A stretch of 54,167 bases of DNA, taken from contig JACQCF010000023.1 in the NCBI GenBank assembly GCA_016201795.1, positions 1 through 54,167 of the forward strand, given 5' to 3'. The DNA is from Candidatus Omnitrophota bacterium (GTDB taxonomy: Bacteria; Omnitrophota; Gorgyraeia; Zapsychrales; Fredricksoniimonadaceae). The position numbers and the translations under genes are program-made. Numbering within the stretch: the stretch's first letter is position 1; the number at the start of each line of letters is the position of its first letter. Below, piece by piece: positions 38,749 through 54,167 of the stretch. Below the pieces are notes generated by a model. It did not search any database. It was given only the letters and a program-made list of their open reading frames with translations, and was not told the DNA's origin.

Positions 38749-38812
38749 GGTTCGTTTGACTGAAGGTCGTTATACAAAACATTTAAGGAACCACGGGCTT
38801 GCCCGCGTGGAT
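38723..38812. repeat. Pair of CCACGGG-NN-CCCGTGG-type hairpins (possible IS200/IS605-like remnant)
   Basis: CCACGGGTTTACCTGTGGAT (38723) and CCACGGGCTTGCCCGCGTGGAT (38791). Confidence 0.6.
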
Positions 38813-39112: not shown

Positions 39113-39985
39113 ATGAGTTATTTTAAAGTTCTGGGATTTGAGGAAGAACCATTTTCTACCAGCCCCGATCCCGACTTTTTTTATCTTTCTCGTGAGCACG
39201 AAACCGCGTTGACTAATATCATGATTGAACTGCGCCTTAAGAGAGGGCTTTCTGTTATCTTGGGAGATGTGGGGACCGGTAAGACGACTCTCTCGAGAAA
39301 ATTGATTCAAGAACTCAAAGAGCGGGAGGATTGCATATTTCATATCATCCTCGACCCCAGCTTTGAGAACGAAACTTTGTTTCTTACTTCTTTGGTGAAA
39401 AATTTTGAAATCAATGTCTCCTATCCTGTGGCTACCATCATTGACCTTCGGGATGCCTTACGGCGTTTCCTTTTTCAAAAGGGCGTCACCGAGGATAAAA
39501 CGGTCACTCTCATCATCGATGAAGCGCAGAAGCTTAGCGAAGACTCGTTGGAGATTCTGCGTCTGCTTTTAAACTATGAGACTAACGAATTTAAGCTTTT
39601 GCAGCTCGTCATCCTGGGGCAACTGGAGCTCTATTCTAAAATTATAAATATTGCTAACTTCCTTGACCGCATAAGCTTTAAGCTCACTTTAAATCCGCTG
39701 GGTTTTGAAGAAACCAAGGAGATGATTGAATTCCGTATCCGGCAGGCTGGCTATAAGGCGAGTATGCATATATTCTTGGATGATGGGGTAAAGGAGATTT
39801 TTCAGTATAGCCGCGGTTACCCCCGGCGTATAACCATGCTCTGTCACCGCGCCCTGAAGGCGCTCGTGTTAAGGAAGAGGTTTGCAGTGGATGCGGCGTT
39901 GGTGAGAGAACTTATTGATGAGGAAATAAAATCGGGATGGCACCGGAAAGATCTATTACTCCAGAAAAACAGCTACTCAGGTTAA
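39113..39985 (+). CDS. ExeA/GspA-family AAA+ ATPase
   Basis: FEEEPFSTSPDPDFFY, Walker A GDVGTGKT, LIIDEAQ, LGQLEL, GYPRRI. Confidence 0.9.
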   Translation: MSYFKVLGFEEEPFSTSPDPDFFYLSREHETALTNIMIELRLKRGLSVILGDVGTGKTTLSRKLIQELKEREDCIFHIILDPSFENETLFLTSLVKNFEINVSYPVATIIDLRDALRRFLFQKGVTEDKTVTLIIDEAQKLSEDSLEILRLLLNYETNEFKLLQLVILGQLELYSKIINIANFLDRISFKLTLNPLGFEETKEMIEFRIRQAGYKASMHIFLDDGVKEIFQYSRGYPRRITMLCHRALKALVLRKRFAVDAALVRELIDEEIKSGWHRKDLLLQKNSYSG

Positions 39986-40626
39986 TTGAGGAACACAAGG
40001 TCCAGAGGAATACCGCCACCCTTCAGGTGCAGGCCTTAAAATACCACAATCTCAGTTTTCTGTCTTTGGGGGCGTGGGTGGGAAGACTCTCTTTTTCCAA
40101 GGATTGGCTGCAAAAGAGGCTGCATGGAGTAAGGGGACAGCCCTTTGATATTAAAATTATAAACCAAGCGGCCGTTGTCTGTATATATATTTTGGCTGTC
40201 TATTTCTCATTTAATTTTATTTCTTCTCTGGTTGATCTATGGAGAATTCCCAATTTAGAGATTAAATCTTCTGAGAAGATAAGGCCTTTGAGTTTCCGAG
40301 AAAATTCGGTTTTGAAGACAGTTGCCTCTTCCTATCTTGAAAAGGTCAGGGAAAGGGATCTCTTTAAGATCGGCAAGGGGACCGATAGGGCAACAGAAAA
40401 TAAGGAAGTTAAAGGCCCCTCCTCCCAGGTGATCGAGGCTTCTGGAAATTTGAAATTGGTAGGAATCTCCTGGTCCAGCGATCCTGACGCGATCGTTGAA
40501 GACACCAAAGCTACCAAGACTTTTTTTGTCAAGGTGGGGCATACGATCGGAGAGGGGAAGGTACAGGCAATTTTTAAGGACAGAGTGATCTTAAGGTATG
40601 GCGACGAGGAGATCGAGTTAAAATGA
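39937..40626 (+). CDS. GspC/PilP-like bitopic protein
   Basis: One TM; C-terminal LKLVGISW..DAIVED..FVKVG..VQAIFKDRVIL domain. Confidence 0.7.
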   Translation: MAPERSITPEKQLLRLIEEHKVQRNTATLQVQALKYHNLSFLSLGAWVGRLSFSKDWLQKRLHGVRGQPFDIKIINQAAVVCIYILAVYFSFNFISSLVDLWRIPNLEIKSSEKIRPLSFRENSVLKTVASSYLEKVRERDLFKIGKGTDRATENKEVKGPSSQVIEASGNLKLVGISWSSDPDAIVEDTKATKTFFVKVGHTIGEGKVQAIFKDRVILRYGDEEIELK

Positions 40627-42569
40627 GAGATCCAAATGCGCTTATCTTCCCGATTGTTATTTTCATTGCCACGGGCCTGTGGTTATCGGCGGGAGGGACT
40701 CTTTATTCCGAGGAAAGGGCTGATATCGTAGTGAACGTTTCCAACAACTCCACTACCAATCAAGTTATCGCGCAGAATGTTGTTACCGAAGAAAAGGCGG
40801 CACAGCAACCTAAGCAGGAATCGGTTTCGAGCGAGAAGGTTGTTTCTCCTGCACCCCAGAAGGGAGACGAGGTTTCTCCCATTCCCGGCGGTATGGAAGG
40901 AAAGCTTTCCCTCGATTTACGTAGTATCGACATAGTGGATGCTCTTAAATTTTTAGCTGTCAAAGTCGGATTGAATATCATTGCGACCAAGAATGTCACC
41001 GGCAGGGTAACGCTCATGGTTGATAGCGTTCCCGTCAAGGATGTATTCGATATTATGTTGCGCTCCAACGGCCTGGCGTTTGTTAAAGAGGGAGATATCT
41101 ACAATGTGATGACTGAGGATGAATACAAAGCAATGTACGGCAGAAAATTTTCTGATTTGCGTCAGGTTAAAGCTTTTCGACTCCAGTACGCCATACCCGA
41201 ACAGGCCTTCAGTATGCTGGATGCCTTGAAAAGCGATGTGGGCAGGGTGCTCGTTGATCCGGATTCGGGAACTGTCATGATTATGGATACGCCGGATAAT
41301 ATCAAGCGTACCGAACAGGCCTTGTTGACGCTGGAGCAGAAAAATCTGGTGCAGGTTTTTACTCTTAAATATGCCAGGGCCAAAGAGGTGGAAGAGCAGC
41401 TCAAGCCTCAGTTGGATGGCAAAAAGGTAGGTTTCATTAAGGCCGATGATCGTTCTAACCAGATTATCGTCCAGGCCCTGCCTGAAAGGATGAGCGCTAT
41501 CGAACGCTTGATCAGCTCCATGGACAAAAAAACCAAAGAGGTTCTCATTGATACCAAAATCGTAAAGGTCAAATTATCTACCGAGCTTACCTCAGGGGTG
41601 GACTGGGAAGGATTATTTAACGTGGGCTCACAATTAGGCACCACCTATGTAGGTTCGTATCCTTTCAGCGTTTTACAGGCGTCTACCGCGGCGTGGCAGT
41701 CGCGGCAGAGTTTTCTTAATTCGCAGGGCGGTAATATCGGTGCCTATCCTTTCAGCGGCAATAGCGCAAGCGTAAATGCCAGCCAGAAGGTTGCTCCCGG
41801 TGAAATGCACGTTGGTGTCATCAAAAACAAGAAGGATTTTGATACCGTGATTAAGTATCTTCAGACGCTCGGGAATACCCAGCTTCTTTCCAATCCCAAG
41901 CTAGCGGTAATCAATAACCAAGAAGCCAAGATTCACATCGGAGAGCGCCAGGCCTATGTGACGAGTACCACGACCAGTGGCCAGACCACCTCCACCGTTT
42001 CCGAAGAGGTTACCTTCATAGATGTCGGTATCCAGCTGTCTGTAACCCCGACCATCAATGACGATGGCTATGTCACTATGAAGGTTAAGCCCGAGGTGTC
42101 GAGTGTTGTCTCCTACATCACCACACCAAGCGGCAATAAGATCCCCATCATTGATACTTCCACCGCGGAGACTACGGTCATGGTAAAAGACGGTTCCACG
42201 ATTATCATCGGTGGCTTGCGTAAAGAAGAAAAGGCTTCGAGTTCCACGGGCATTCCTTTCTTAAGTAAGATCCCTTTTATCGGTTTGTTTTTTCAATCAG
42301 GAAGCAAGAAAACGGAAAGAACGGAATTGTTGGTTATGTTGACTCCGCATATCGTCACCGGAGATACCCTGGTCACCGGAGATGAAAGGGAGTTTGGGAC
42401 CAAGCCCGGCAAGGAATATCAACCATACAAGCCGTTTCTCGCTGATACCGATTTGGAACCCGCCCAACATGTTATCGAGCAGAAGATGAAACCTTATCGG
42501 GAATATGGTGACCTTAAGCCGCAGCTCAAAGAATTGGCCCCAGTTATCAAAGGAGGCATAAGTGACTAA
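40623..42569 (+). CDS. Secretin (GspD/PilQ family)
   Basis: N0 and N3-like repeats, LLSNPKL, DVGIQLSVTP, VKDGSTIIIGGL, GIPFLSKIPFIG. Confidence 0.95.
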   Translation: MRDPNALIFPIVIFIATGLWLSAGGTLYSEERADIVVNVSNNSTTNQVIAQNVVTEEKAAQQPKQESVSSEKVVSPAPQKGDEVSPIPGGMEGKLSLDLRSIDIVDALKFLAVKVGLNIIATKNVTGRVTLMVDSVPVKDVFDIMLRSNGLAFVKEGDIYNVMTEDEYKAMYGRKFSDLRQVKAFRLQYAIPEQAFSMLDALKSDVGRVLVDPDSGTVMIMDTPDNIKRTEQALLTLEQKNLVQVFTLKYARAKEVEEQLKPQLDGKKVGFIKADDRSNQIIVQALPERMSAIERLISSMDKKTKEVLIDTKIVKVKLSTELTSGVDWEGLFNVGSQLGTTYVGSYPFSVLQASTAAWQSRQSFLNSQGGNIGAYPFSGNSASVNASQKVAPGEMHVGVIKNKKDFDTVIKYLQTLGNTQLLSNPKLAVINNQEAKIHIGERQAYVTSTTTSGQTTSTVSEEVTFIDVGIQLSVTPTINDDGYVTMKVKPEVSSVVSYITTPSGNKIPIIDTSTAETTVMVKDGSTIIIGGLRKEEKASSSTGIPFLSKIPFIGLFFQSGSKKTERTELLVMLTPHIVTGDTLVTGDEREFGTKPGKEYQPYKPFLADTDLEPAQHVIEQKMKPYREYGDLKPQLKELAPVIKGGISD

Positions 42570-43629
42570 ATTTAAAATACTGGCTATCGTTGTTTTAATC
42601 TTCATCCTTGGCCAGAGCGCAGGACTGCTTTATTTCGTCAGTAAGACACAAGGGCTTTTGCAGAAGAATCAGGAGCTGGTCGCTAAAGTCGAAAGGTACG
42701 GCCCGGGGTACGAAAAATTGGATAAACAGTTTCAGGAAGTGAGTAGTAAATATACCGCGGCGGCGAAGGAGCTGGAGACGGTTAAGGCAGACCGCGAAAA
42801 CATTCTCGCTCAGGCAAAAAGCCTTTTGGGAGAAAGGGCAAAAGCAGGAGAACTGGAAGAGGTAGCGGAGAAGGCGAAGGCAGAGGTAAGCTCAGTAAAA
42901 AAGGAGTTGGAGGAGGCAAAGAACCAAGGCCTTTCTTTGAAAGAAGAAATAAATAAATTCCAGGTCACGCAGGCCCAGCTGACTAAGGAAAGAGACGAGC
43001 TTAAAATTGCCTATGAGAAGGCGGCAAAAAACACTATCGTAAAGGAGCTCAACAACAAGATTTCTGGCTTGCAGAAAGATTTGAAGAGCAAGATTGCCCA
43101 GGCCCAGACGGAAAAGAAGAAACTGGAAGCGAAATTGAAACTGGCCGAGAAGGAAAACTCTCGCCTTACCGAAGAGAAGAACAAATGGAATACCGCCAGG
43201 GATCAGCTGACCGGTCAGTTGAATGACTATAAGAAAAATTACGTTGGGGCAGTTAAGAAAAACAAGGCGCTGGAGTCGAAGATAAAGGAGACGCCGGCTA
43301 AGTTCACCGAGATTGCCCGTCAGAACAAGGTTCTTTTAAGGCAGACTGCCGAGATGCATTATAACCTGGGGGTATTTTATACCAAGAACAAGGAATATGA
43401 TCGGGCGGTAGCGGAATTCGAGAAGGGTATCGAGATCAATCCCAACGATGCCTCTGCCCACTTTAATCTCGGGTATATCTATTCCGAATATCTAGTGAAC
43501 CGCAAGAGGGCGATGGAGCATTTCCGCCATTTTTTAAGGCTGACAAAGAGCGACGATCCCGATGTGGATTGGGTGAAGAAATACGTGCTTACGTGGGAGA
43601 CGTATGAAGGCAAAATGCCGATGCAGTAA
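42562..43629 (+). CDS. Membrane-anchored long coiled-coil protein with C-terminal TPRs
   Basis: TM, about 230-aa coiled coil, HYNLGVFY and HFNLGYIY TPRs. Confidence 0.85.
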   Translation: MTKFKILAIVVLIFILGQSAGLLYFVSKTQGLLQKNQELVAKVERYGPGYEKLDKQFQEVSSKYTAAAKELETVKADRENILAQAKSLLGERAKAGELEEVAEKAKAEVSSVKKELEEAKNQGLSLKEEINKFQVTQAQLTKERDELKIAYEKAAKNTIVKELNNKISGLQKDLKSKIAQAQTEKKKLEAKLKLAEKENSRLTEEKNKWNTARDQLTGQLNDYKKNYVGAVKKNKALESKIKETPAKFTEIARQNKVLLRQTAEMHYNLGVFYTKNKEYDRAVAEFEKGIEINPNDASAHFNLGYIYSEYLVNRKRAMEHFRHFLRLTKSDDPDVDWVKKYVLTWETYEGKMPMQ

Positions 43630-43679
43630 AAGTAAGTGGCATAATAAAAAAGTAAGGTGCATCATAAAAGGAGGAGAAG

Positions 43680-44234
43680 ATGGACAAGATAGGCAAAATA
43701 GCAGCATTAGTGGTGGTCGCAGTTTTGGTAGGGTCGGACTTGGTCTATGCCGGATTGTGGGGGAAATCCGAGCCGGAGGCATCCCAGCCGGTTCCCGCGG
43801 CACTTAAGGTAGTTCCAACCCAAGAGGTGCTGGCGAAAAAGAAGGCTGACCTCAATAACACGGAGTGGGCTGTCGAAGTAAAACCCATGAACGGCAAGGG
43901 TCAAGCGGAAAAGGATACGCTGACTTTTACTGACGGCAAGGTGGTTTCCAAGAATATGGGGCAGAAAGGTTACAGCCCTACCAATTATTCCGTTAGATTA
44001 CTGGATGATGAAACCTTTACTTGGGAAACCATGCAGACCTCTGAGAAGGATGGTGTCGCATTCTGGCGTGGCGACATCGGCCCTGATGGAATAATGCGCG
44101 GTGTCATCAGTAAACGTGACAAGAAAAATAATGGCAACGATTTTAGTTTCTTAAGCGTGAGCAGCCAGAAGATTACTCCGGTACAGCCTGAACCAGCACC
44201 GGCGCAGCCTGAACCAGCTCCCGCTAAGAAATAA
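43680..44234 (+). CDS. Exported beta-rich hypothetical protein
   Basis: AGGAGG SD, signal peptide, Pro-rich tail from a 21-nt tandem duplication (44184-44218). Confidence 0.75.
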   Translation: MDKIGKIAALVVVAVLVGSDLVYAGLWGKSEPEASQPVPAALKVVPTQEVLAKKKADLNNTEWAVEVKPMNGKGQAEKDTLTFTDGKVVSKNMGQKGYSPTNYSVRLLDDETFTWETMQTSEKDGVAFWRGDIGPDGIMRGVISKRDKKNNGNDFSFLSVSSQKITPVQPEPAPAQPEPAPAKK

Positions 44235-44269
44235 GTGAATATGCGGAGCAGTGTGGCCGAGGTGCGTCT

Positions 44270-44830
44270 ATGACGAAAGATAAGGTTTTTCATAGGCAGA
44301 TTATATTTATAATTGCCTTAGGCGCAGTCTGTCTCCTTGCGGGGGCGAGCCTTGCCGCTGCTGGCATCAAGTTTAGCGCGGCAGTGGATAAAATGGAATA
44401 TAAAACCGATGAGCCGATAAACATCATCTTTAGTTTGAAAAACGAAGGTAAAGAGGCGGTTTATGTCAACAGGCGATTTTATGTTGGTTTGGAGTCGATG
44501 CCGAAGCAGAAGCGGGATGTCTATCTTTTAGTAACCTCTCCTTCCGGGAAAAAGCTTACTTCTCCCAATAATTACGAGGCGGGTTTACCTAAAAGCGATT
44601 ATTTTGAACTGCTGGAGCCAGGAAAGGAAGTAAAATCAGAATACCCGCGCAACTTAAGAGGTTTTTTTGAGTTTAACGAGCCGGGGACTTACAAGGCGGT
44701 GGCTGTCTATCAGAATGTGTTTGGTGAAGAATTGGGCCTGAATGTTTTTAAGGATAAACTTGTTTCCCAACCGGTGTCATTTACCATTGTAAAAGCGGCG
44801 AGTGCCGCTCAAGGGACGGATAAGAAATGA
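44270..44830 (+). CDS. Exported hypothetical protein (Ig-like beta-sandwich suspected)
   Basis: Signal peptide; DKMEYKTDEPI..LKNEG, LEPGK, PGTY, SQPVSFTIV. Confidence 0.7.
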   Translation: MTKDKVFHRQIIFIIALGAVCLLAGASLAAAGIKFSAAVDKMEYKTDEPINIIFSLKNEGKEAVYVNRRFYVGLESMPKQKRDVYLLVTSPSGKKLTSPNNYEAGLPKSDYFELLEPGKEVKSEYPRNLRGFFEFNEPGTYKAVAVYQNVFGEELGLNVFKDKLVSQPVSFTIVKAASAAQGTDKK

Positions 44831-46302: not shown

Positions 46303-46777
46303 ACTCATGTTAAAAACGGTGATTGTCTTAGTCTGCGGGTGGTCGGGCATTGCTTGCGCGCAATCGATCAATAGTCAGACTAATACAACTACTCAGACGA
46401 CAAATGCCACAGCTGCCGCTGTGACAGATACCACGACGGCTGCCACTCAAGATAGTGGTGGGGCTATCGCCACTTCTGGGCAAAAAGAAATCCAAGGCGA
46501 GGTCAGTGCTATTGGTAAGGGTTATATTTCCATTGTTTATGAGCGCGATACGGCAAAAGGCATTGAATACGAAATGATGTTGCCCCTCGATGAGAACATA
46601 CAGTTTCAACATAAAAAAAGTCTTAAGGAGTTCGCTATCGGTGATACTGTTAAGGTAAGATTTGAAGATGCCACCGAAGAAGATAATGCGAAGGTTCAAC
46701 ATTTGAAGCGCAAGGCCAGGGTGATCAGTTTTGTGAGTTCGGCGGCGCCGACTCCGCCTGGATCCAGCGCTCAATAA
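46289..46777 (+). CDS. Exported hypothetical protein (Thr-rich linker plus small beta-barrel)
   Basis: Signal peptide, T/A-rich stretch, GEVSAIG...LKEFAIGDTVKVRFE. Confidence 0.7.
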   Translation: MKAHRLMLKTVIVLVCGWSGIACAQSINSQTNTTTQTTNATAAAVTDTTTAATQDSGGAIATSGQKEIQGEVSAIGKGYISIVYERDTAKGIEYEMMLPLDENIQFQHKKSLKEFAIGDTVKVRFEDATEEDNAKVQHLKRKARVISFVSSAAPTPPGSSAQ

Positions 46778-46806
46778 ATAAAGCGTGCAGGGTGATAAAA
46801 TAGGAG

Positions 46807-49800
46807 CTGGCTATCCTTAAAAGACAAAATCGTTTCGCCTTTTGTCATTTTTTATTAAAGGGTATTTGGGGTGTAGTGTTTGCCGCCCTGTTCTTCTGGT
46901 CTGCGCAGGCCCAGGCCACTGTGCAGATTAACCAGGTGTTGAGGGGCAGCTATACTTTTACTGGTGGAAGCAGCGGAGTTGGTGGAGAGGCAAGCACAGT
47001 CGTTGCTATTGGCGCAACCGTCAATACGGCCAAGTCCATTATACTACTAAGCACCTCTGCCAGCTATAATGCCCCCGGCGAGTCGCTTTTTTCTGCCTAC
47101 TTTGATGACAGTTCTCACATTATCATTCAGCGCGGTCTGGCCAGCGAGAATAATACCGGCACTCCCACCGTCAACTGGCAGGTCGTCGAATTTGCCAATG
47201 GCGTAACGGTCACCGCAGGTTCTACCAGCCTAGGCACTACCATCACTTCTAAAGTAGTTACTTTGCCCAGCAGTCTTACCGATGGCAAAGCCATGGTCAT
47301 TCTTAACGGAGGCACTCTCACCGGTATGTTTGAAAATTACTATTATTCACTCGGTAACCAGAGCGGCCGCACTTTAGCTGCCGGCAACGACGAAGTCTGG
47401 ACGCCAACGGCAGATATCACTACTTACGGTGATGCCAATAATGCTGCTCAAATAACCATCCAGCGTAATGATAAGGATTCAGACTCCTCATCGAAGTCGG
47501 TGAATGTTGGACTGACGGTGTATTATCAGGTCATCTCGTTTGACGCGGATGTGAGTATACAGCATGGTACGAGTAGCATCACCAATACTGCGTCCTCAGT
47601 CACAGCTACTGTGACATCGGTTGATACTACCAAATCGATGCTGTTTTTTACTTATCGTGCCCCGGCGAATGCCAGTGGTGCAGGTTTAGGGGTGGAATCA
47701 GATTATGCCTTAAGTGGCGCGATTACCAACTCTACCACTTTAACCTTTACCCGTGCCACCACCGGCTCCACCGGCTCATCAGCACCGCTGAATATTGCTT
47801 GGTTTCTGTTGACCTTTACAGACGCCACATCAATCCTCAGCGGGAGCTTAAGTAGCGGCACTAATGCTTCGATTTCGACTGGGACACTGACGCTGGATAC
47901 TGTCCATAATTTCAGTCTTATCTCGGCCTCCGGCGCCAGCGGTGATAGCGCCACTGGATTTGGTGATATATTATGGCGACAAACTTTCAGCAGTACCGTT
48001 CTCACGGCCAACCGTGACGGCGGCGGGACCACCGCCACTACCATTCCGTATTTTATAGCCCAACCTCCGTTAGTCAAAGTGGTTACTCCCGCTGGCAGCG
48101 AGACTTGGAAAGTGCACGATACTCAAAATATTACTTGGACAGCAGCAGCTTCGGTTGCCAATGTCAAAATCGAATATTCTGGCAATAATGGAGGAGCGTG
48201 GAATACCATCATTGCCTCCACCGCTTCCTCGGCCGGTTCTAATAACTATAGCTGGACCGTGGGCTATAATTCTGACGGCAGCAGCATATTCCCAAGTTCG
48301 GAAGTAGCCACCCAGTGTTTGGTCAGGATTACAGATACTGCCAGTTCTAGTAATACGATGACCTCTCCCGCGTTCACTATTAAAAGCCAACTTTCCATTA
48401 CGGCACCCGTGGGCGGGGAACTCTGGCTGGTCACCGATACCACGCGTGCTATCACCTGGAACAGCTATGGGAATTTTAACAGCACTGTTAAATTGCAGTA
48501 TTCCATTGATGCGGCTCACACGACTTGGACTAATATCAGCGGTGCCACCACTATAACAACAGCAACCAATGGATCTAATAGCTATACCTGGAGCTCCATT
48601 CCCATCGCTGCGACCGGGGCAACCGACAAGATACAAGTGGTTTCCAATGCCGCCACTCCTACCGTTTCCAGTGCCAGCCCCAGCAATTTTGAAATCCGCG
48701 GTTCCATCACCGTTACCGCTCCCGCGGCCAATGCCGTATGGTCTACCGGCTACGCCAACACTATCACATGGACCTTAGGTTCCACCACCACCAACGTAGA
48801 TCTTTCCTATTCTGTGGATAACGGAGTCACTTATACCTCCATTGCTACCAATCAAAACGCGCAGAATATTGACTCTACTCACGGCTCCTATAGCTGGACT
48901 CCGGCGCTTAGTCTAACCCCCAGCACCACATCCTACATCAAGGTGGTTGACCACAGCAGTAGTAACGTGTCTGCAATCAGCGGTAAGTTTACTATACAAG
49001 CATCGATAACGGTCAATTCTCCTGTCGGCGGAGAAGTCTGGAAGGTGGATGATACCAATGCCATAACATGGACCTTGGGCGGCGGCACCAGCATCACCTA
49101 TGTTACCATTAAATACTGCACGGATTTCAATACCAGTCAGACCTGGCAGACTGTGACAGGCGCAGGACAGGTTGATGCTACCCTGGGCACTTTTAACTGG
49201 ACTGTCCCTGATGCCATTGGCGCTGCTACTGGAGTGAGGATTTATAAATATCTGGATGCCACCATTTATGGTACATCCCCCGCCGCTTTTAGTATCAAAG
49301 GCAACATTTCAATCATTAATCCCGCCGCAGGCATCTACATGCCCGCTAATTCGAATTACGTGATTACCTGGACTCCTCACGGCGGTTTGCACACGGCTTA
49401 CGGTGATAATTTCAAGCTGGAATATTCTAAAAACGGGGGTACAAGCTTCAGCACTATTTATACCGGTCTCAATGGAAGTTCCGGCTCAACTACCTGGAAT
49501 TCTGCAGACATTCCTATAGATAACCTGCAGGCAAGCAACACACAAATAAAAATAGGTTTGTCAGGAGATGACAGTGCCCCCAATGGTGTTTATGGTCAAT
49601 CGAGCAGTTTTTATATTATTGGAAATCTTAGCCTTACTTATCCTACTGGCGGTCAAACTTTTAATATCGGCAATGCTTGTGTGATCACGTGGACCGCTTA
49701 TCCGAGCGGTAATAACCAATTGGGCGCGGTACGCATCGCTTACTCTATAAATAGCGGGACTGACGGATATCCTGACACCCAGGTCATTGCAACCGGTATC

Positions 49801-52800
49801 GACGCTTCCACGGGCCCCACCGGTTATAGTTGGACTATTCCCAACACCGACCTTTTGTATTCTACGGACAGGATACAGGTAAAACTTGCCAGTGATGCAA
49901 GCGGACAAGTCAAAACTGCCTCGACTACTGATTTTAATATAAAAGGAAGCTTGACCCTGACCCGTCCTTCTACCAATTCGGGAGACACTGCTTTAACCTG
50001 GTTATGCGGAACCCAAGAGAATATTACCTGGACGAGGCAGGGGAGCTCCATGGGCGCGGTCGATATCTTTTATTCCAAAGACAATGGCAATGACCTGTAT
50101 GTCAACGTTATAGATAATAGCGGGACAATTGCTTCTTCTGCCCAGACTTATGCCTGGACCATTCCCAGCGATGCTACGGTTTTCAAGACCGGAGATAACG
50201 GGGAAAATACTCAGGTTAAAATCAAGCTGGTTTTGCATAGCGACTCCTCGGGTGTTAATTCTAAGTCTGCCCAACCGCTGACCATTAAGTCTCAATTCAC
50301 CAACCTTGTCCCTAACGGCGGCACTATAACGGTGGGGTCACCTTTTAATATTACGTGGACCACCAAAGGTGATGTGGCAACGGTCAATGTCAACTACAGT
50401 ACTAACAGCGGCGCCGACGGCTACCCCAATGCTATCGCTACGAATGTGAGTAATGCCGGGGGCTGGAACTGGAATCCTGTCAACTGTCCTGTTAGCGGCA
50501 CCATACGAGTGAAAGTTGTAAGCACCGCTCATAGTGACATTAACACCCCATCCGCGGGGGATGTCAATGCCAAGGGTAGTTTGCAAATAACGGCCCCCAC
50601 TTCCGCCAACACGGGGACCAGCGCTTTGATTCCCGGCCATACGTTTAGGATTACCTGGGTGACTAACGGCGGGGTGGGTTCGAATGTTGGATTGGTGGAT
50701 TTATATTATGCGCAGGATGGCACCACGTTTGGCAGCTCTTTTGCTCAGGTGGATACGTCAGTGCAAAATTACTACGACTGGACCGTTCCCAGCCCAGCCA
50801 GTCTTCCGATTACTACTGCTAAACTCAAGGTGACGGAGCATGATGATAGCAGCGTAACCTCTACCTCGCCGGATCCCTTTGATATTAGAGGAAATCTCTG
50901 GGATGGCACGACCAATCATGCCCTCGTCGAGCCCAACGGCGGAGAAATATATTATGTCGGCGGTAGCAATATCAACATGCAATGGAAATTTCAAGGAGTT
51001 GTCGGTAACTGTGACCTTTATTACGATACCAGCGCAGGTAGCGGCGGTTATCCCAATCACATCGCCACGGTTGCCTATAATAACAATGTCAGCAACGGCA
51101 TTGCCTCTTACAGCTGGACGGTCCCCGGTTCTGCCGGCACCCAATATAGAGTCAAACTTGTTTCTGTCAATGACCCAACCTATGCTTATGCCAACTCCCA
51201 GGGGAATTTTGTTGTCAAAGGTAATGTGGTGCTGACAGCACCGGGTATGAATGCCGGCTCCCCTGAGGTCTGGTATGTGGATAGTACCAATCCCGTTTCC
51301 TGGAATATGACAGGCGGCATATCCCAGGTGGATTTACTTTTGGATACTCACGGCGGAAGCGATAGCTATACCGACTATGTCATTGCCTCCGGTATTGGTG
51401 GCAGCGCATCACCTTATCAATGGAGCATTGCCCAGGAGACAGACAGACAAACGATAACTTCCAACACTTGCCGGGTGCGCGTTAGGGACCATAATGACAC
51501 CACGGTCTATTCCAGTTCCACCAATAACTTTTCCATGAAGCCTCGGGTCACTATTGGCGCACTTCAAAATACACCGTGGGCAGTACAAGATCAGCCGACC
51601 ATTACGTGGACTAACAGTGGTACTATTTCCCAATTGAATTTGTATTATTCGTCAGCTGGCCAAAGCGGACCATGGGGAAGCGCACAAATAACCGGTATTA
51701 GCGCCGCGGCGGGAAGTGTTATTTGGACCATTCCGACCAGCGCAGTTTCGTGGGGGAATGCGGTTTTGAAATTGGTGAGAGTAGAGAGCGGAACGGAAGA
51801 TACCGCTGTTACCAGTCAATCTCCCAACTTTACAATTAAAGGGAAGATTAATGTTACCGCGCCTTTGACCAATCAGACTTATAATGTCCAGCAGACCGGG
51901 ACGATTACCTGGAATGTGGTGGGAGCCGTGGGCAATGTGGACATCAAATACAATACGAATTCTGCCGGCGGTTATCCGGACACGGACTGGGCTGCTTTTA
52001 CGGGGGCAACAGGCATAGTCCCTGATTATTGTACCAATGTCCCTGGAACACCCTACACCTTTACCATTCCCAGCACTACGGCACCATCGGTAAAAATTAG
52101 AATCTTTGAATCCAACCATGCTGAGGTATTTGGCCCTCCCATGGCTGGTTCACCGACGCATAATTTTAAAGGAAGTATTATTTTTGATAAACCCCCTGGC
52201 AATCCAAGTACTAAAAATCAAACCATCACCATAGGACCCAGTTCCTACACCATCAACTGGTCACTGGTGGGTGATTTTACCACGCTGCGCGCTTATTATA
52301 AGAAAGTCGGCGATGCTCAATGGTCGCAGATTGGCTCTGATTTAGGAGGGACCATTACTCAGACGAATTATACACCCATTGACTCTGATATCACCGCTGC
52401 CGATGGTTCCAATAAGGTTCTCTTTCGTGTTGAGGATGCCTTAGATCCTAGTAACGTGTACGCTGAGACCGGTACTAATGAAGGCAATACCGTTGTGGGT
52501 GCTTTGCAGATATTAGAACCCGTCACGCCAGTGGAGCTGACCGTGGGCAGCACGGTTGAGGTAAAATGGAAAAAATATGGAAACATAGGGAATCTCAAAT
52601 TCGAATTGTGGAATGGCTCCCAATGGTTGAATAATGCCGGGGGTTCCAATCTTCCCGATACTTATCCTTCTGGAACATCGGGGGAGAGCGGTATTGTGCT
52701 CGTACCCAACTGGACAGTGCCGGATAAAATTGGATCTGGTCTCCAAATTCGCGTCACGTCTATTACTTATCCATCACTCACCAGCACGACGGGCCAATTC

Positions 52801-54167
52801 ACTATTAAAGGCGGCTTCTCTTCCATTAATACTCCTGCCACTTGGTATGTGGGTCAAGATCATGTGATCAACTGGCAGGCCAATGGCAGTATGTCCAGTG
52901 TGAAAATCGAACTTTACAATGGTACCACTTGGGCGACCATTGCGAATGCTTATGATAACGGGGGGGCCGGACTTATCAACGGGGCCAACTCTTACACGTG
53001 GAGCGGTTCGGATACTCTTCAGCAGCAGAGAAGTTCAACGTGTAAAATCAGGGTTACCTCCAATCAGAACCCCGATGTTTACATCGAAACAGGTAATTTC
53101 ACCTTAATTCCCCAAGTGACTGTCACAACACCCTCGCAGGCGTGGATTGCCGAAAGTAACAGCAACACCATTTCGTGGAATACCATCGCCGCTCCCACTA
53201 CCAATGTGGATATTATTCTCTCCGATGCCAACAATGGGACCGGTTACCCGGTGACTTTAGCCAGCAATATAGCCAAAGGTTCTTCTCCTTATGCCTCAAC
53301 CGTAACCCTTCCGGCGACATTAACGGCGGGGGCTACAATCCGCGTTCGGGATCACGATTTTCCTAACCTCATTTACGGAGACTCCAGTACCTTTAACGTG
53401 ATTGGTCAGATCATCATGTCTCCGACGGACAATACCCCCAACGCTTCTTCCAACTGGCCTGCGGGTTCCAGTCAGGCCATCACCTGGTCCAGCAAGGGGA
53501 ATTTAGGTCAGGTCAATATCAAGTTTAAACATGATGGCGGCTCCTATTCAGCGCCGTTGGCTGGTTCTCCTGTGGCGGTTTCTGACCATTCTTATACTTG
53601 GAGCTTGCCTACGGATGTCATTTCTCAACATGTGCAGGTTAAAATAGAATCGGTCAATAATCCCACACAGGAGTATGTGGAATCGCCGGAATTTTCAATA
53701 AGAGGAAGCTTTACTATCGACAGTCCGGGAACTGTAAATTCAGGAGATCCTTATACCATAACCTGGAGCCAGCCCGCTAATCAGGCGAATCTCATCCCCA
53801 ATGTTATTTTGCAGTTTTATGATGGTGCCGCTTGGAATTATATTATTTCCAGCGCGCCCCATACGGTTTCTAACACGGGAAGCTACAGCTGGTCAGTGCC
53901 TACCAATGTTCGTGCGACTACTTGCAAATTACAGGTTTCCGACCCTAATAATTCATCGGCAGTGGATCAGACCGACAATTTCGAAATCAGGCCTTCCATC
54001 AATGTTACTGCCCCCACCTCTGCCGCCCAATGGACCATCGGCACTCAAACGGGTAACAATATCGTCTGGTCCACCGTGGGACCTGTGCCCACAGTCAAGA
54101 TTGAATACTCCAAGGACAATGGCACCACCTTTAGCTATGTCATCGAAAGCTCCATTGACGGGGCCAG
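46807..54167 (+). CDS. Giant exported repeat protein (putative adhesin/surface filament), truncated by the window end
   Basis: Frame 1 after TAG 46801: no stop in the lines translated fully (to ~49980 and the last line), and repeat motifs stay in this frame to the end (>2450 codons); signal peptide ending AQA|TVQ; 4 N-terminal repeats then about 20 S/T/G/N-rich ~100-aa repeats; start codon uncertain. Confidence 0.92.
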   Translation, partial: MAILKRQNRFAFCHFLLKGIWGVVFAALFFWSAQAQATVQINQVLRGSYTFTGGSSGVGGEASTVVAIGATVNTAKSIILLSTSASYNAPGESLFSAYFDDSSHIIIQRGLASENNTGTPTVNWQVVEFANGVTVTAGSTSLGTTITSKVVTLPSSLTDGKAMVILNGGTLTGMFENYYYSLGNQSGRTLAAGNDEVWTPTADITTYGDANNAAQITIQRNDKDSDSSSKSVNVGLTVYYQVISFDADVSIQHGTSSITNTASSVTATVTSVDTTKSMLFFTYRAPANASGAGLGVESDYALSGAITNSTTLTFTRATTGSTGSSAPLNIAWFLLTFTDATSILSGSLSSGTNASISTGTLTLDTVHNFSLISASGASGDSATGFGDILWRQTFSSTVLTANRDGGGTTATTIPYFIAQPPLVKVVTPAGSETWKVHDTQNITWTAAASVANVKIEYSGNNGGAWNTIIASTASSAGSNNYSWTVGYNSDGSSIFPSSEVATQCLVRITDTASSSNTMTSPAFTIKSQLSITAPVGGELWLVTDTTRAITWNSYGNFNSTVKLQYSIDAAHTTWTNISGATTITTATNGSNSYTWSSIPIAATGATDKIQVVSNAATPTVSSASPSNFEIRGSITVTAPAANAVWSTGYANTITWTLGSTTTNVDLSYSVDNGVTYTSIATNQNAQNIDSTHGSYSWTPALSLTPSTTSYIKVVDHSSSNVSAISGKFTIQASITVNSPVGGEVWKVDDTNAITWTLGGGTSITYVTIKYCTDFNTSQTWQTVTGAGQVDATLGTFNWTVPDAIGAATGVRIYKYLDATIYGTSPAAFSIKGNISIINPAAGIYMPANSNYVITWTPHGGLHTAYGDNFKLEYSKNGGTSFSTIYTGLNGSSGSTTWNSADIPIDNLQASNTQIKIGLSGDDSAPNGVYGQSSSFYIIGNLSLTYPTGGQTFNIGNACVITWTAYPSGNNQLGAVRIAYSINSGTDGYPDTQVIATGIDASTGPTGYSWTIPNTDLLYSTDRIQVKLASDASGQVKTASTTDFNIKGSLTLTRPSTNSGDTALTWLCGTQENITWTRQGSSMGAVDIFYSKDNGNDLYVNVIDNSGTIASSAQTYAWTIPSDATVFKTGDNGENTQVKIKLVLHSDSSGVNSKSAQPLTIKSQFTNLVPNGGTITVGSPFNITWTTKGDVATVNVNYSTNSGADGYPNAIATNVSNAGGWNWNPVNCPVSGTIRVKVVSTAHSDINTPSAGDVNAKGSLQITAPTSANTGTSALIPGHTFRITWVTNGGVGSNVGLVDLYYAQDGTTFGSSFAQVDTSVQNYYDWTVPSPASLPITTAKLKVTEHDDSSVTSTSPDPFDIRGNLWDGTTNHALVEPNGGEIYYVGGSNINMQWKFQGVVGNCDLYYDTSAGSGGYPNHIATVAYNNNVSNGIASYSWTVPGSAGTQYRVKLVSVNDPTYAYANSQGNFVVKGNVVLTAPGMNAGSPEVWYVDSTNPVSWNMTGGISQVDLLLDTHGGSDSYTDYVIASGIGGSASPYQWSIAQETDRQTITSNTCRVRVRDHNDTTVYSSSTNNFSMKPRVTIGALQNTPWAVQDQPTITWTNSGTISQLNLYYSSAGQSGPWGSAQITGISAAAGSVIWTIPTSAVSWGNAVLKLVRVESGTEDTAVTSQSPNFTIKGKINVTAPLTNQTYNVQQTGTITWNVVGAVGNVDIKYNTNSAGGYPDTDWAAFTGATGIVPDYCTNVPGTPYTFTIPSTTAPSVKIRIFESNHAEVFGPPMAGSPTHNFKGSIIFDKPPGNPSTKNQTITIGPSSYTINWSLVGDFTTLRAYYKKVGDAQWSQIGSDLGGTITQTNYTPIDSDITAADGSNKVLFRVEDALDPSNVYAETGTNEGNTVVGALQILEPVTPVELTVGSTVEVKWKKYGNIGNLKFELWNGSQWLNNAGGSNLPDTYPSGTSGESGIVLVPNWTVPDKIGSGLQIRVTSITYPSLTSTTGQFTIKGGFSSINTPATWYVGQDHVINWQANGSMSSVKIELYNGTTWATIANAYDNGGAGLINGANSYTWSGSDTLQQQRSSTCKIRVTSNQNPDVYIETGNFTLIPQVTVTTPSQAWIAESNSNTISWNTIAAPTTNVDIILSDANNGTGYPVTLASNIAKGSSPYASTVTLPATLTAGATIRVRDHDFPNLIYGDSSTFNVIGQIIMSPTDNTPNASSNWPAGSSQAITWSSKGNLGQVNIKFKHDGGSYSAPLAGSPVAVSDHSYTWSLPTDVISQHVQVKIESVNNPTQEYVESPEFSIRGSFTIDSPGTVNSGDPYTITWSQPANQANLIPNVILQFYDGAAWNYIISSAPHTVSNTGSYSWSVPTNVRATTCKLQVSDPNNSSAVDQTDNFEIRPSINVTAPTSAAQWTIGTQTGNNIVWSTVGPVPTVKIEYSKDNGTTFSYVIESSIDGA

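What the first reader, a model, noticed from the sequence alone, without database searches (positions are those of the whole stretch)
39113..54167. Candidate dedicated export and folding system for a giant protein: ExeA ATPase, GspC-like, secretin, coiled-coil/TPR, 3 exported unknowns, SurA-cyclophilin, giant adhesin
Seen: nine tightly packed co-directional genes, several overlapping, behind an AT-rich gap. Known: ExeA/GspA assists secretin assembly, GspC/PilP contacts secretins, and SurA and cyclophilins fold exported proteins. No GspE/PilB ATPase, GspF/PilC platform or pseudopilin lies between 39.1 kb and the giant ORF, so this part is not a canonical T2SS or T4P operon. Inference: a stripped-down secretin channel with its own foldase for one giant, Pro-containing repeat substrate. 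Giant genes near T2SS-like genes have been reported in Omnitrophota, but I do not know of a described mechanism or role for the small accessory proteins.
Basis: partly seen in the sequence, partly recalled or inferred. Interest (0 to 1): 0.88.

Follow-up and report, generated by a model that had tools for sequence, protein, structure and literature searches.

The report
Front half of giant-protein secretion locus
The nine genes are the outer-membrane and periplasmic half of a complete type II secretion-like locus built around a giant repeat-protein gene, a layout already reported in outline for Omnitrophota bacteria, so it is not a stripped-down new channel.

Summary
The window is a whole contig (C1), so the giant ORF is cut by the contig end.

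Its only repeat relative in the genome is a 5'-cut giant ORF on contig C4. That ORF is followed by F1-like ATPase genes, GspE-PilZ, GspF, GspG, minor pseudopilins, GspK, a PilM-PilN fusion (GspL role) and PilO/GspM. C4 has no secretin and no GspC. In genome G095 the orthologues of both halves form one contiguous locus around an 8096-aa giant gene. Contiguous paralogous loci show the same order in G016, G011 and on the genome's own contig C27.

The cassette-to-giant gene order is conserved across families: 8 of 8 assessable loci. The SurA-like-cyclophilin fusion is an optional module, always paired with unknown 2 (16 of 16 loci).

T2SS-like loci beside giant genes and F-type ATPases beside pilus-like clusters in Omnitrophota are already published. 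Verdict: a new member of a known kind with some undescribed details; moderate interest.

The parts
38749..39112 (.). AT-rich intergenic region with a promoter-like site (38860-38889) and a hairpin plus T-run (39061-39095) just before the first gene
   Evidence: 33% G+C against 46.5% for the window. TTGACA, 18-nt spacer, TG-extended TAGCAT, 10 of 12 matches; 14-pair hairpin. No Rfam match. Fold z = -1.7. Not conserved in 4 orthologous loci.
39113..39985 (+). Cytoplasmic AAA+ ATPase of the ExeA/GspA/MshM kind (290 aa), with no membrane or peptidoglycan-binding part
   Evidence: AAA_22 73 bits. TIGR03015 176 bits, below its cut-off. No hydrophobic segment. 316 relatives among GTDB species genomes; followed by the GspC-like gene in 69 of 71 loci and by a secretin in 65 of 67.
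39937..40626 (+). Bitopic GspC/PilP-HR-like protein (229 aa), overlapping the ATPase gene by 49 nt; a GspB-like role is an alternative
   Evidence: T2SSC 28.1 bits against a 27-bit cut-off, residues 126-222. GspC_delta 26.5 bits against 150. Hydrophobic segment at residues 70-101. No PDB sequence relative.
40623..42569 (+). Secretin (648 aa): signal peptide, low-complexity linker, N0/STN, two Secretin_N domains, secretin domain, C-terminal tail of about 70 aa
   Evidence: Secretin 168 bits, Secretin_N 85, STN 28.5. GspD 264, PilQ 252 and MshL 193 bits, all below their cut-offs. PilQ 6ve2 134 bits and GspD 5wln 129 bits.
42562..43629 (+). Membrane-anchored coiled-coil protein with a C-terminal TPR domain (355 aa); MshN/TadD/PilW-like secretin-assembly candidate
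   Evidence: TPR_11, TPR_1 and related hits at residues 263-309; coiled-coil-type hits at 35-275. N-terminal hydrophobic segment. Present after the secretin in 37 of 39 related loci.
43680..44234 (+). Exported unknown 1 (184 aa); its conserved domain also occurs in 146-480-aa paralogues inside related cassettes
   Evidence: No Pfam or NCBIfam hit. Alignment A2 of 11 sequences. Present in 28 of 39 related loci. No PDB profile hit.
44270..44830 (+). Exported unknown 2 (186 aa), probably a single beta-sandwich domain; constant partner gene of the PPIase fusion (4-nt overlap)
   Evidence: Alignment A1. Upstream of the fusion in 16 of 16 loci that have it and never found alone. Family of 1035 representatives, some with 7-18 tandem copies in Ig-like repeat proteins. 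Weak arrestin-like PDB hit, E = 0.012.
44827..46302 (+). Periplasmic SurA-like N-part (residues 1-315) fused to a cyclophilin PPIase (residues 325-472)
   Evidence: Pro_isomerase 181 bits; SurA_N_2 19.3 bits, sub-threshold. 119 of the 120 listed relatives carry PF00160. Orthologues have ordinary signal peptides and no conserved lipobox. Only the cyclophilin part matches PDB sequences.
46289..46777 (+). Exported unknown 3 (162 aa), lying directly upstream of the giant gene in most orthologous loci
   Evidence: Alignment A3. Directly before the giant gene in G266, G331 and G323; one gene removed in G063. Followed within 0.4 kb by a hit to the giant's N-terminus in L106 and L108. No PDB profile hit.
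46804..54167 (+). N-terminal fragment (at least 2430 aa) of a giant exported protein: signal peptide, a unique domain of about 400 aa, then Ig-like repeats of about 96-100 aa; cut by the contig end
   Evidence: Open at the contig end. Kre9_KNH in 4 stretches. Repeat period. Only relative in the genome is the C4 giant fragment, E = 1.8e-120. Orthologues at 30-59% identity. Conserved signal peptide and mature N-terminus.

Best explanation
The cassette is the outer-membrane and periplasmic half of one large operon-like locus of roughly 45-55 kb. The locus encodes a complete type II secretion-class (Gsp/Msh-like type IV filament) machine with the gene for its giant cargo placed in the middle. The order is: ExeA/MshM-like ATPase, GspC-like connector, secretin, TPR assembly factor, periplasmic accessory proteins, giant Ig-repeat protein, F1-like ATPase genes, GspE-PilZ, GspF, MA-type peptidase, GspG, minor pseudopilins, GspK, PilM-PilN fusion (GspL role), PilO/GspM. 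Shown: the gene content, the conserved order across families, and the split of this genome's copy over contigs C1 and C4. Inferred: the giant protein enters the periplasm through Sec by its signal peptide. There the SurA-like-cyclophilin protein with unknown 2, plus unknowns 1 and 3, hold and fold it. The pseudopilus machine then passes it through the secretin to the cell surface. It stays tethered by the conserved C-terminal membrane-anchored domain and serves attachment to other cells. The ATPase, the GspC-like protein and the TPR protein are inferred to assemble the secretin and couple it to the inner-membrane platform.
For: (1) The window is the whole of contig C1, so the giant ORF is cut by assembly. 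(2) Among 16 large ORFs of the genome, only the 5'-cut 3716-aa ORF on C4 shares its repeats (27.6% identity over 2130 aa, E = 1.8e-120, many registers). (3) C4 then carries F-ATPase epsilon, c, b/delta, alpha, gamma and beta, GspE with MshEN and PilZ domains, GspF, an MA peptidase, GspG, an N_methyl protein, GspJ, GspK, PilM-PilN and PilO/GspM. GspG passes its NCBIfam cut-off, 137 against 88.85 bits. C4 has no secretin and no GspC-like paralogue. (4) G095 holds everything in one 351-kb contig: ATPase 67%, GspC-like 40%, secretin 48%, TPR 32%, an 8096-aa giant, then alpha 65%, beta 64%, GspE-PilZ 55% and GspF 50%, through to PilO. The C4 fragment aligns collinearly with residues 4892-8096 of that giant. 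(5) Contiguous paralogous loci with the same order occur in G016, G011, G060 and on the genome's own C27. (6) Genomes with the closest C1-type cassettes also hold the closest C4-type alpha subunit: 68-81% in 5 of 5 searched, against 41-50% in the own genus and family. In 4 of 4 fetched, that module follows a 5'-cut orthologue of the C4 giant. (7) A giant orthologue follows the cassette in 8 of 8 assessable loci that were chosen by the PPIase alone. (8) The signal peptide and mature N-terminus are conserved among orthologous giants. (9) The genome has a single prepilin peptidase gene, on C12.
Against: The C1-C4 join is inferred, not sequenced. The two contig ends share no sequence, and a metagenome scan with the last 42 bases of C1 found nothing. 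A second pair of cut ends exists (a 3'-cut giant on C2; a 5'-cut ORF followed by F-ATPase, GspE and GspF on C17). The pairing C1-C17 is excluded only by lack of similarity. No experiment or expression data shows that the giant protein is the cargo. Within this genome, proximity of secretins to giant ORFs is no better than chance at 10 kb (2 of 9, P = 0.62) and marginal at 25 kb (6 of 9, P = 0.055). The paralogous C27 locus has only an 868-aa protein in the cargo position, so giant size is not required. Most Gsp assignments fall below the curated NCBIfam cut-offs. Whether a folded fibre of about 8000 residues could pass a secretin is unknown.
Confidence: 0.7

Rival explanations
1. The machine is an attachment or motility filament (the T4aP/MSH-like cluster with a 'symbiotic' F-type ATPase described for Omnitrophota) whose product is a pilus, not secretion of the giant protein. 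The giant gene sits inside the locus only because both serve host attachment and are co-regulated, and the giant reaches the surface by another route.
For: Seymour et al. 2023 (passages read) describe F-type ATPase genes beside T4aP-classified clusters in many Omnitrophota and propose attachment or motility. GspE carries the MshEN and PilZ domains typical of c-di-GMP-controlled pilus ATPases. The secretin scores as well against PilQ as against GspD. The C27 paralogue has the same machine around an 868-aa protein. The within-genome proximity test is not significant.
Against: The major pilin is GspG-type and passes the GspG equivalog cut-off. GspJ, GspK and GspM models score best for the minor parts. 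No PilT-type gene and no AMIN-domain secretin is in the locus. The giant gene keeps its exact position between the TPR/accessory genes and the ATPase module across several families while its sequence diverges to 30-60% identity.
Confidence: 0.2
2. One reading: a minimal secretin channel with its own assembly ATPase, connector and foldase exports the giant protein without GspE, GspF or pseudopilins.
For: No GspE, GspF or pilin gene lies between 39.1 kb and the contig end. The join to C4 is inferred, not sequenced.
Against: The ORF is cut by the contig end. Every contiguous relative places GspE, GspF and the pseudopilins after the giant gene. All four fetched C4-type contigs of relatives show the same module after the giant fragment. 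C4 lacks exactly the parts that C1 has.
Confidence: 0.03
3. The locus builds a mechanical surface organelle. The giant Ig-repeat fibre is anchored in the inner membrane by its C-terminal domain and passes through the secretin. It is moved or tensioned by the F1-like ATPase that lacks an a-subunit, by analogy with the F1-like motor and giant leg proteins of Mycoplasma mobile gliding.
For: Three extra F-type alpha/beta sets each sit directly before a GspE-GspF pair. The only ATP-synt_A gene lies beside the fourth set, on C7. A conserved bitopic protein sits between the giant gene and the ATPase genes, and is fused to the giant's C-terminus on C4; in G266 and G331 the epsilon gene directly follows the giant ORF, consistent with the same fusion. 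Seymour et al. place such Omnitrophota alpha subunits with the Mycoplasma type 2/3 ATPases.
Against: Here alpha and beta pass the ordinary atpA/atpD cut-offs, and the gliding-type models score below theirs. A c-subunit and a b/delta fusion are present, as in ordinary rotary enzymes. No structural or physical evidence exists, and no phylogeny was run here.
Confidence: 0.1

Closest known systems
T2SS-like loci next to giant genes of Omnitrophota (West-Roberts et al. 2023, bioRxiv 10.1101/2023.11.21.568195; abstract, section 11 and term passages read)
   Same: Same phylum by the record titles of the relatives (60 of 80 say Omnitrophota or Omnitrophica). A very large exported protein gene lies beside gspD, gspE, gspF, small pilin-like genes and a peptidyl-prolyl isomerase, with a PilZ domain nearby.
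   Different: Their text places the secretion genes before the giant gene. Here the giant gene splits the system into a secretin half and a GspE/GspF/pilin half. Their PPIase is of the Rotamase_2 type; here it is a cyclophilin fused to a SurA-like part. 'ATP synthase', 'secretin', 'cyclophilin' and 'SurA' do not occur in their main text. This giant, at 6146 aa or more (8096 aa in G095), is smaller than the proteins of 30,000 aa or more that they focus on. Their figures and supplements were not visible to me and may show more.
[quoted passage not shown] 2023, PMC10066038; passages read)
   Same: A non-respiratory F-type ATPase gene set lies within a few kb of a type IV filament gene cluster; giant ORFs are common in the same genomes.
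   Different: They treat the ATPase/pilus loci and the giant ORFs as separate traits. Here they are one locus. The filament genes score best as T2SS (GspG, J, K, M) rather than T4aP. Membership of this alpha subunit in their type 2/3 clade was not tested here.
MSHA pilus system of Vibrio cholerae (mshL-M-N-E-G; PMC4624765 Table 1; MSH model in Denise et al. 2019)
   Same: An ExeA-like ATPase without a peptidoglycan-binding part (MshM), a TPR protein (MshN, homologue of the secretin-assembly factor TadD), a secretin, and an extension ATPase with the MshEN domain.
   Different: The gene order differs. The secretin scores below the MshL cut-off (193 against 250 bits). The major pilin is GspG-type, not MshA-type. 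A GspC-like gene, an F1-like ATPase and a giant cargo gene are present.
Canonical T2SS with ExeA/ExeB (GspA/GspB) secretin-assembly factors (recalled from Aeromonas and Vibrio work; no paper on it read here)
   Same: An AAA+ ATPase gene is translationally coupled to a bitopic membrane protein gene directly upstream of the secretin. GspC, D, E, F, G, J, K, L-like and M-like parts are all present.
   Different: The ATPase has no membrane segment and no peptidoglycan-binding domain. Cargo, foldases and an F1-like ATPase are embedded in the locus. GspH and GspI were not identified.

Membership tests
Type II secretion system (Gsp type) | Outer-membrane secretin of the GspD kind | tested here: inconclusive
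   Secretin superfamily clearly met (PF00263 168 bits, two Secretin_N, N0/STN). The GspD equivalog scores best but below its cut-off (264 against 351 bits), with PilQ close behind at 252. PDB: PilQ 134 bits, GspD 129 bits.
Type II secretion system (Gsp type) | GspC with an HR domain (mandatory in the T2SS model of Denise et al. 2019) | tested here: inconclusive
   PF11356 T2SSC 28.1 bits against a 27-bit cut-off. NCBIfam GspC_delta 26.5 against 150. No PDZ or coiled-coil C-domain. No PDB sequence relative.
Type II secretion system (Gsp type) | GspE ATPase and GspF platform in the same locus | tested here: met
   Not in the window. Present on C4 directly after the giant fragment and the F-ATPase genes: T2SSE 435 bits, T2SSF 185 bits. 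GspE and GspF equivalogs score best but below their cut-offs (580 against 630; 360 against 424). The link to the window rests on synteny.
Type II secretion system (Gsp type) | Major pseudopilin GspG and minor pseudopilins | tested here: met
   On C4: TIGR01710 GspG 137 bits against an 88.85-bit cut-off. T2SSJ 31.7 against 28 and T2SSK_1st 61.4 against 26.2. One further N_methyl protein. GspH and GspI not identified.
Type II secretion system (Gsp type) | GspL and GspM assembly platform; prepilin peptidase | tested here: inconclusive
   The PilM_2 plus PilN fusion (54.8 and 42.6 bits) fills the GspL role. PilO and T2SSM_b hits lie just under their cut-offs (21.0 against 22; 20.8 against 21.7). 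One Peptidase_A24 gene, on C12. TXSScan/MacSyFinder could not be run.
MSHA-type pilus system | Mandatory genes of the MSH model: mshA, mshE, mshG, mshL, mshM (Denise et al. 2019) | tested here: not met
   An ExeA-like ATPase (the kind MshM belongs to) and an MshEN-domain ATPase (69.9 bits) are present. The secretin is below the MshL cut-off (193 against 250 bits). The major pilin is GspG-type. No MshM-specific model was available to me.
Type IVa pilus | PilQ with AMIN domains, separate PilM/N/O/P, PilT retraction ATPase in or near the cluster | tested here: not met
   No AMIN hit. PilQ subfamily 252 bits against a 284-bit cut-off. PilM and PilN are fused. No PilT-type gene on C1 or C4.
ExeA/GspA | AAA+ domain plus a membrane segment and a periplasmic peptidoglycan-binding domain | tested here: not met
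   AAA_22 73 bits, but no hydrophobic segment and no PG-binding domain in the 290 aa. It works like the ATPase part only, as MshM does.
SurA | N-terminal chaperone domain plus parvulin domain(s) | tested here: not met
   SurA_N_2 19.3 bits against 28.5. Some relatives carry precomputed PF13623/PF13624 hits. No parvulin domain reaches threshold. About 320-aa paralogues in other cassettes have Rotamase_2 at 18-23 bits against a 27-bit cut-off in 3 of 8. SurA-like, not a SurA.
Cyclophilin-type PPIase | Pro_isomerase domain with the conserved catalytic motif | tested here: met
   PF00160 181 bits against 21.7. PDB cyclophilins up to 217 bits. The FHR...QGGD block is invariant in 9 orthologues. The identity of the catalytic residues is recalled, not tested.
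Omnitrophota 'symbiotic' type 2/3 F-type ATPase beside a T4P-like cluster (Seymour et al. 2023) | F-type alpha/beta genes within 10 kb of the filament cluster, and alpha in the type 2/3 clade | tested here: inconclusive
   Co-location met on C4, C17 and C27. No a-subunit gene in these sets. Clade membership not tested: alpha and beta pass the ordinary atpA/atpD cut-offs, and the gliding-type models score below theirs.

The most novel reading that the evidence does not exclude
The locus encodes a new kind of surface organelle. An Ig-repeat fibre of about 6000-8000 residues is tail-anchored in the inner membrane and threaded through its own secretin by a T2SS-class pseudopilus machine. It is mechanically coupled to an F1-like rotary ATPase that lacks an a-subunit: a diderm counterpart of the Mycoplasma mobile leg-and-motor apparatus. 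A modular periplasmic foldase slot serves it, filled here by a SurA-like-cyclophilin protein with an obligate beta-sandwich partner.
Probability: 0.12. Interest if true: 0.85.

Novelty: new member of a known kind. Interest (0 to 1): 0.45.

Why it matters
Omnitrophota are uncultivated, very small bacteria thought to live on other cells. Their giant genes and many pilus-like systems are their most striking traits, and both remain unexplained. This work shows that three things form one conserved unit: the secretin half, the giant gene, and the F1-like ATPase with the GspE/GspF/pseudopilin half. Short-read assemblies routinely cut this unit in two at the repeats. That gives a concrete parts list for experiments on how a protein of thousands of residues is exported, and it warns against reading 'incomplete' secretion systems from contig-end fragments. 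It also defines three conserved accessory families and a strict gene pair (unknown 2 with the cyclophilin fusion) that can be tested directly.

Tried and rejected
1. Scan of metagenome contigs with the last 42 bases of C1, to find a bridging contig: 0 hits.
2. Sequencing runs: four DNA runs of one groundwater study hold the stretch; no RNA holder is listed. No reads were laid, because contigs could not link two separate contigs of this assembly.
3. Riboswitch or leader idea for the hairpin before the first gene: no Rfam match, unremarkable fold (z = -1.7), not conserved in 4 orthologous loci.
4. Profile searches of unknowns 1-3 against PDB sequences: nothing significant. The unknown families are unrelated in the two pairs compared, A1 vs A3 and A2 vs A3 (hhalign probability 1% and 14%).
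5. Lipoprotein reading of the PPIase fusion (LFGC in this copy): rejected, because orthologues have ordinary signal peptides.
6. Post-giant membrane protein as a divergent F-ATPase a-subunit: rejected; it is bitopic with one C-terminal helix.
7. Within-genome proximity test of secretins and giant ORFs: not significant.
8. Pairing of the C2 and C17 cut ends: unresolved, since the first ORF of C17 matches nothing.
9. A first reading that the fusion is unique to this genome (0 of 60 family genomes): overturned by the wider searches.
As a result there are no models of unknowns 1-3 and no binding test of unknown 2 with the fusion.

Full report
OBSERVATION. Five of the eight junctions overlap and the other gaps are 35-98 nt. 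The 364-nt gap upstream has 33% G+C against 46.5% for the window, and it holds the best promoter-like site of the region.

Pfam and NCBIfam confirm the labels:
- an AAA_22 ATPase of the ExeA kind, 290 aa;
- a weak but above-threshold T2SSC (GspC HR) hit, 28.1 bits against a 27-bit cut-off;
- a secretin with N0/STN and two Secretin_N domains;
- a membrane-anchored coiled-coil protein ending in TPR repeats;
- two proteins with no family;
- a cyclophilin domain (181 bits) behind a SurA-like N-part that scores below threshold;
- a third protein with no family;
- an open giant ORF with Ig-like Kre9_KNH repeats.

The ATPase has no hydrophobic segment. The other seven small proteins each have one, N-terminal in six and at residues 70-101 in the GspC-like protein. 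The giant is Ser/Thr/Asn/Gly-rich but not proline-rich: 4.7% Pro against 4.0% in the proteome.

THE CONTIG END. The window is the whole of contig C1 of a 1.59-Mb, 28-contig genome that is 94.8% complete, so the giant ORF is cut by assembly. The genome has:
- 9 secretin matches;
- 16 T2SSE matches, 14 over the cut-off;
- 18 T2SSF matches, two per gene;
- many very large ORFs, several cut at contig ends.

None of the GspE or GspF genes is on C1. Among 16 large ORFs compared, the C1 giant resembles only a 3716-aa ORF on C4 whose 5' end runs off that contig (27.6% identity over 2130 aa, E = 1.8e-120, many registers). Both have repeats of about 96-100 aa.

Downstream of the C4 fragment lie, in order: F-type ATPase epsilon, c, a b/delta fusion, alpha, gamma and beta; GspE with MshEN and PilZ domains; GspF; an MA-type peptidase; GspG; an N_methyl protein; GspJ; GspK; a PilM-PilN fusion, which is the GspL arrangement; and PilO/GspM. 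C4 has no secretin and no paralogue of the GspC-like protein. C1 and C4 therefore hold complementary halves of one system.

TESTING THE JOIN WITH RELATIVES. In G095, orthologues of both halves lie in one 351-kb contig. The order there is:
- ATPase (67% identity), GspC-like (40%), secretin (48%) and TPR protein (32%);
- accessory genes;
- an 8096-aa giant gene;
- a 282-aa protein equal to the C-terminal domain of the C4 fragment;
- epsilon, c, b/delta, alpha (65%), gamma and beta (64%);
- GspE-PilZ (55%), GspF (50%), the peptidase, pseudopilins, GspK, PilM-PilN and PilO;
- the PPIase fusion on the opposite strand at the end.

The C4 fragment aligns collinearly with residues 4892-8096 of that giant. 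Paralogous contiguous loci with the same layout occur in G016, G011 and G060, and on the genome's own contig C27.

The genomes with the closest C1-type cassettes also hold the closest C4-type alpha subunit: G266 81%, G331 76%, G323 75%, G347 74% and G133 68% (5 of 5 searched). Same-genus and same-family genomes reach only 41-50%. In 4 of 4 fetched, that module follows a 5'-cut orthologue of the C4 giant. These assemblies break in the same place.

A caveat remains. C2 (a 3'-cut giant behind a paralogous cassette) and C17 (a 5'-cut ORF before F-ATPase, GspE and GspF) form a second open pair. C17's first ORF matches nothing, so the pairing C1-C4 rests on repeat similarity and on the co-varying identities. 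Under either pairing, a GspE/GspF/pseudopilin module follows a cassette of this type. The giant in this genome is at least 6146 aa, and in G266 the two fragments sum to at least 7381 aa.

HOW CONSERVED THE CASSETTE IS. A search with the fusion's N-part in 300 genomes of the phylum found about 12 full-length fusions, scattered over several families. None were in the 8 genomes of the window's own family, and none in 60 genomes of that family searched earlier.

I fetched 11 of the 12 neighbourhoods. Nine hold ATPase, GspC-like, secretin and TPR on the same contig. In 8 of those 9 a homologue of the giant follows: 7 cut by a contig end and 1 complete. In the ninth the contig ends first. The two remaining contigs, from G153 and G320, are too short to judge.

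Identities to G266 and G331:

| Protein | G266 | G331 |
|---|---|---|
| ATPase | 77% | 77% |
| Secretin | 67% | 61% |
| Unknown 1 | 64% | 55% |
| Unknown 2 | 59% | 53% |
| PPIase fusion | 69% | 67% |
| Unknown 3 | 35% | 45% |
| Giant | 49% | 59% |

The closest relatives lie outside the window's own family. That fits transfer of the whole unit within the phylum, or patchy loss.

In a second sample chosen by the ATPase alone, I examined the 80 best of 316 relatives among the GTDB species genomes. By my count, 60 of the 80 record titles say Omnitrophota or Omnitrophica. Composition downstream of the ATPase:

| Gene | Loci with it | Loci with enough downstream sequence |
|---|---|---|
| GspC-like | 69 | 71 |
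| Secretin | 65 | 67 |
| TPR protein | 37 | 39 |
| Unknown 1 | 28 | 39 |
| Unknown 3 | 10 | 39 |
| Unknown 2 and the fusion, downstream | 8 | 39 |
| Unknown 2 and the fusion, either side | 10 | 39 |

The 10-kb flank reached a giant-type ORF in only 9 of 39, which says nothing about the rest.

ACCESSORY PROTEINS. Unknown 2 lies about 0.5-0.6 kb upstream of the fusion in all 16 loci that have the fusion, and never occurs without it. In the window the two genes overlap by 4 nt. The unknown-2 family has 1035 representatives (38 at E of 1e-30 or better). Its domain also occurs in 7-18 tandem copies in proteins that Pfam reads as invasin, filamin, BsuPI or MG2-type Ig-like repeats. It is therefore probably a single beta-sandwich domain.

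The fusion family is large: 161 proteins at E of 0.001 or better, and 119 of the 120 listed carry the cyclophilin domain. The orthologues have ordinary signal peptides. Cassettes without the fusion often hold other proteins in the same neighbourhood:
- a paralogue of about 320 aa of its N-part, with a sub-threshold Rotamase_2 hit in 3 of 8. This resembles the Rotamase_2 PPIase reported by West-Roberts et al.;
- FGE-sulfatase-domain proteins, in the C27 and C2 paralogues;
- an FKBP gene between unknown 2 and the fusion, in one relative.

The foldase position is thus a variable slot, not a fixed part. Unknown 3 sits directly before the giant gene in G266, G331 and G323, and one gene removed in G063. 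In L106 and L108 a hit to the giant's N-terminus follows within 0.4 kb. None of the three unknowns has a significant relative among solved structures.

THE GIANT PROTEIN. Orthologues show a full signal peptide and a conserved mature N-terminus. In C1, no ATG, GTG or TTG lies in frame between the upstream stop at 46801-46803 and the GTG at 46876. The upstream residues nevertheless complete a normal signal peptide, so a non-canonical start is likely.

A conserved bitopic domain follows the repeats: about 180 soluble residues and then a C-terminal membrane helix. It is fused to the giant on C4. In G266 and G331 the epsilon gene directly follows the giant ORF, consistent with the same fusion. It is a separate gene in G095, G016, C17 and C27.

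WHAT KIND OF MACHINE. The NCBIfam results for the C4 module are:
- GspG passes its equivalog cut-off;
- GspE, GspF, GspK and GspM score best among their alternatives but below cut-off;
- the F-ATPase alpha and beta pass the ordinary atpA/atpD cut-offs, while the gliding-type models score below theirs.

The secretin lies midway between GspD and PilQ. The ExeA-like ATPase without a peptidoglycan-binding part, the TPR protein and the MshEN-domain ATPase recall MshM, MshN and MshE of the MSHA pilus. No PilT-type gene and no AMIN domain is in the locus. The one prepilin peptidase gene is elsewhere in the genome. I file it as a T2SS-class type IV filament machine with MSH-like assembly factors. TXSScan could not be run.

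The genome has four F-type alpha/beta pairs. Three of them sit directly before a GspE-GspF pair, and only the fourth has an a-subunit gene nearby.

WHAT IS KNOWN. West-Roberts et al. 2023 state that Omnitrophota giant genes are generally preceded by a T2SS-like locus of more than 10 subunits. It includes gspD, gspE, gspF, rcpC, a Rotamase_2 PPIase and small pilin-like genes, and is followed by pilZ genes (section 11 read). Seymour et al. 2023 report non-respiratory F-type ATPase genes beside T4aP-classified clusters (57 of 66 contigs within 10 kb) and frequent giant ORFs (passages). A 2026 preprint counts T2SS/T4P genes flanking 13 of 14 giants (passages).

The following details were not in the text I could read:
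- the cargo gene lying between the two halves of the system;
- the F1-like ATPase inside that same unit;
- the MshM/MshN-like factors;
- the pair of cyclophilin fusion and unknown 2;
- the C-terminal anchor domain.

This rests on term searches and on library searches. Figures and supplements were not visible to me and may show some of these points.

MECHANISM AND LIMITS. Shown: the gene content, the conserved order, and the assembly split. Inferred, in order of the export path:
- Sec export of the giant into the periplasm;
- periplasmic holding and folding by the SurA-like-cyclophilin protein with unknown 2;
- secretin assembly by the ATPase, the GspC-like protein and the TPR protein;
- passage of the giant through the secretin, driven by the pseudopilus machine;
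- tethering of the giant by its C-terminal anchor.

Points against, or left open:
- The join is not sequenced.
- No expression data exist; no RNA holder is listed.
- Proximity of secretins and giant ORFs within this genome is not significant: P = 0.62 at 10 kb and 0.055 at 25 kb.
- The C27 paralogue carries only an 868-aa protein in the cargo slot.

Noticed in passing
window 2061-4133: Three small co-directional genes far from the cassette: one with a prepilin N-methylation motif (2465-2926), one with DUF7305 (2919-4133) and one with no family. An SH3b/NlpC-P60 peptidase gene follows at 4096-5505. This looks like an orphan pilin-like cluster.
   Followed up: no
window 35768-37282 (- strand): An ordinary PpiD/SurA-like PPIase (SurA_N_3 plus Rotamase_2, 504 aa) lies 1.8 kb upstream of the cassette on the opposite strand. 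It is 28% identical to the N-part of the cyclophilin fusion. West-Roberts et al. mention a Rotamase_2 PPIase in giant-gene loci.
   Followed up: partly
window 39061-39095: A 14-pair hairpin followed by a T-run ends 17 nt before the ATPase start codon, about 170 nt downstream of the promoter-like site. It has no Rfam match and is not conserved in 4 orthologous loci. It may be a terminator of the upstream unit or a local attenuator.
   Followed up: yes
G000 contigs C4:8999-13964, C17:2870-8140, C27:54270-59676: Three extra F-type ATPase gene sets (c, b/delta, alpha, gamma and beta; an epsilon gene seen in two of the three), each directly followed by GspE and GspF. The only ATP-synt_A (a-subunit) gene of the genome sits beside the fourth set, on C7.
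   Followed up: partly
G000 contig C15:87945-145442: An ORF of at least 19,166 aa runs off the contig end. A secretin, a T2SSE-type ATPase and two T2SSF-like genes lie in the 22 kb upstream.
   Followed up: no
L066:8362-9651 and L084:11452-12672: In related cassettes, a conserved protein of about 400-430 aa joins an N-terminal IS200-like Y1 transposase domain (Pfam Y1_Tnp, E = 6.5e-11 and 8.7e-8) to a C-terminal part related to unknown 1. This is an odd combination for a gene between a foldase and a giant adhesin gene. It is absent from the window's copy.
   Followed up: no
L070:12491-13021: An FKBP-type PPIase gene lies between unknown 2 and the cyclophilin fusion in G284. BLAST equivalents occupy the same place in G133 and G320. 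Some cassettes therefore carry two kinds of PPIase.
   Followed up: partly
G000 contig C12:22132-23725: A T2SSE-type ATPase gene is interrupted by one in-frame TAG and is called as two ORFs of 226 and 303 aa. It could be a pseudogene, a sequencing error or read-through.
   Followed up: no
G000 contig C2:43952-57072: The paralogous cassette on C2 starts right after secA. It has a DUF2283 gene and a Fic gene inserted between the TPR gene and an FGE-sulfatase-domain gene, ahead of its own 3'-cut giant ORF.
   Followed up: no
L066:17713-19546 and equivalents: A response regulator and a PAS histidine kinase lie directly upstream of the ATPase in G331 (Pfam). By BLAST equivalence the same holds in G266 and G347; in G133, G232 and G284 these genes lie nearby but not adjacent to the ATPase. 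In the window the upstream genes are a phosphoesterase and a 16S rRNA (RsmI-type) methyltransferase instead.
   Followed up: no
C17:3218-3508 and L064:13541-13879: Small GIY-YIG endonuclease-domain ORFs sit inside two of these loci: between the F-ATPase genes on C17 and between the TPR gene and unknown 1 in G266. They are possibly mobile elements.
   Followed up: no
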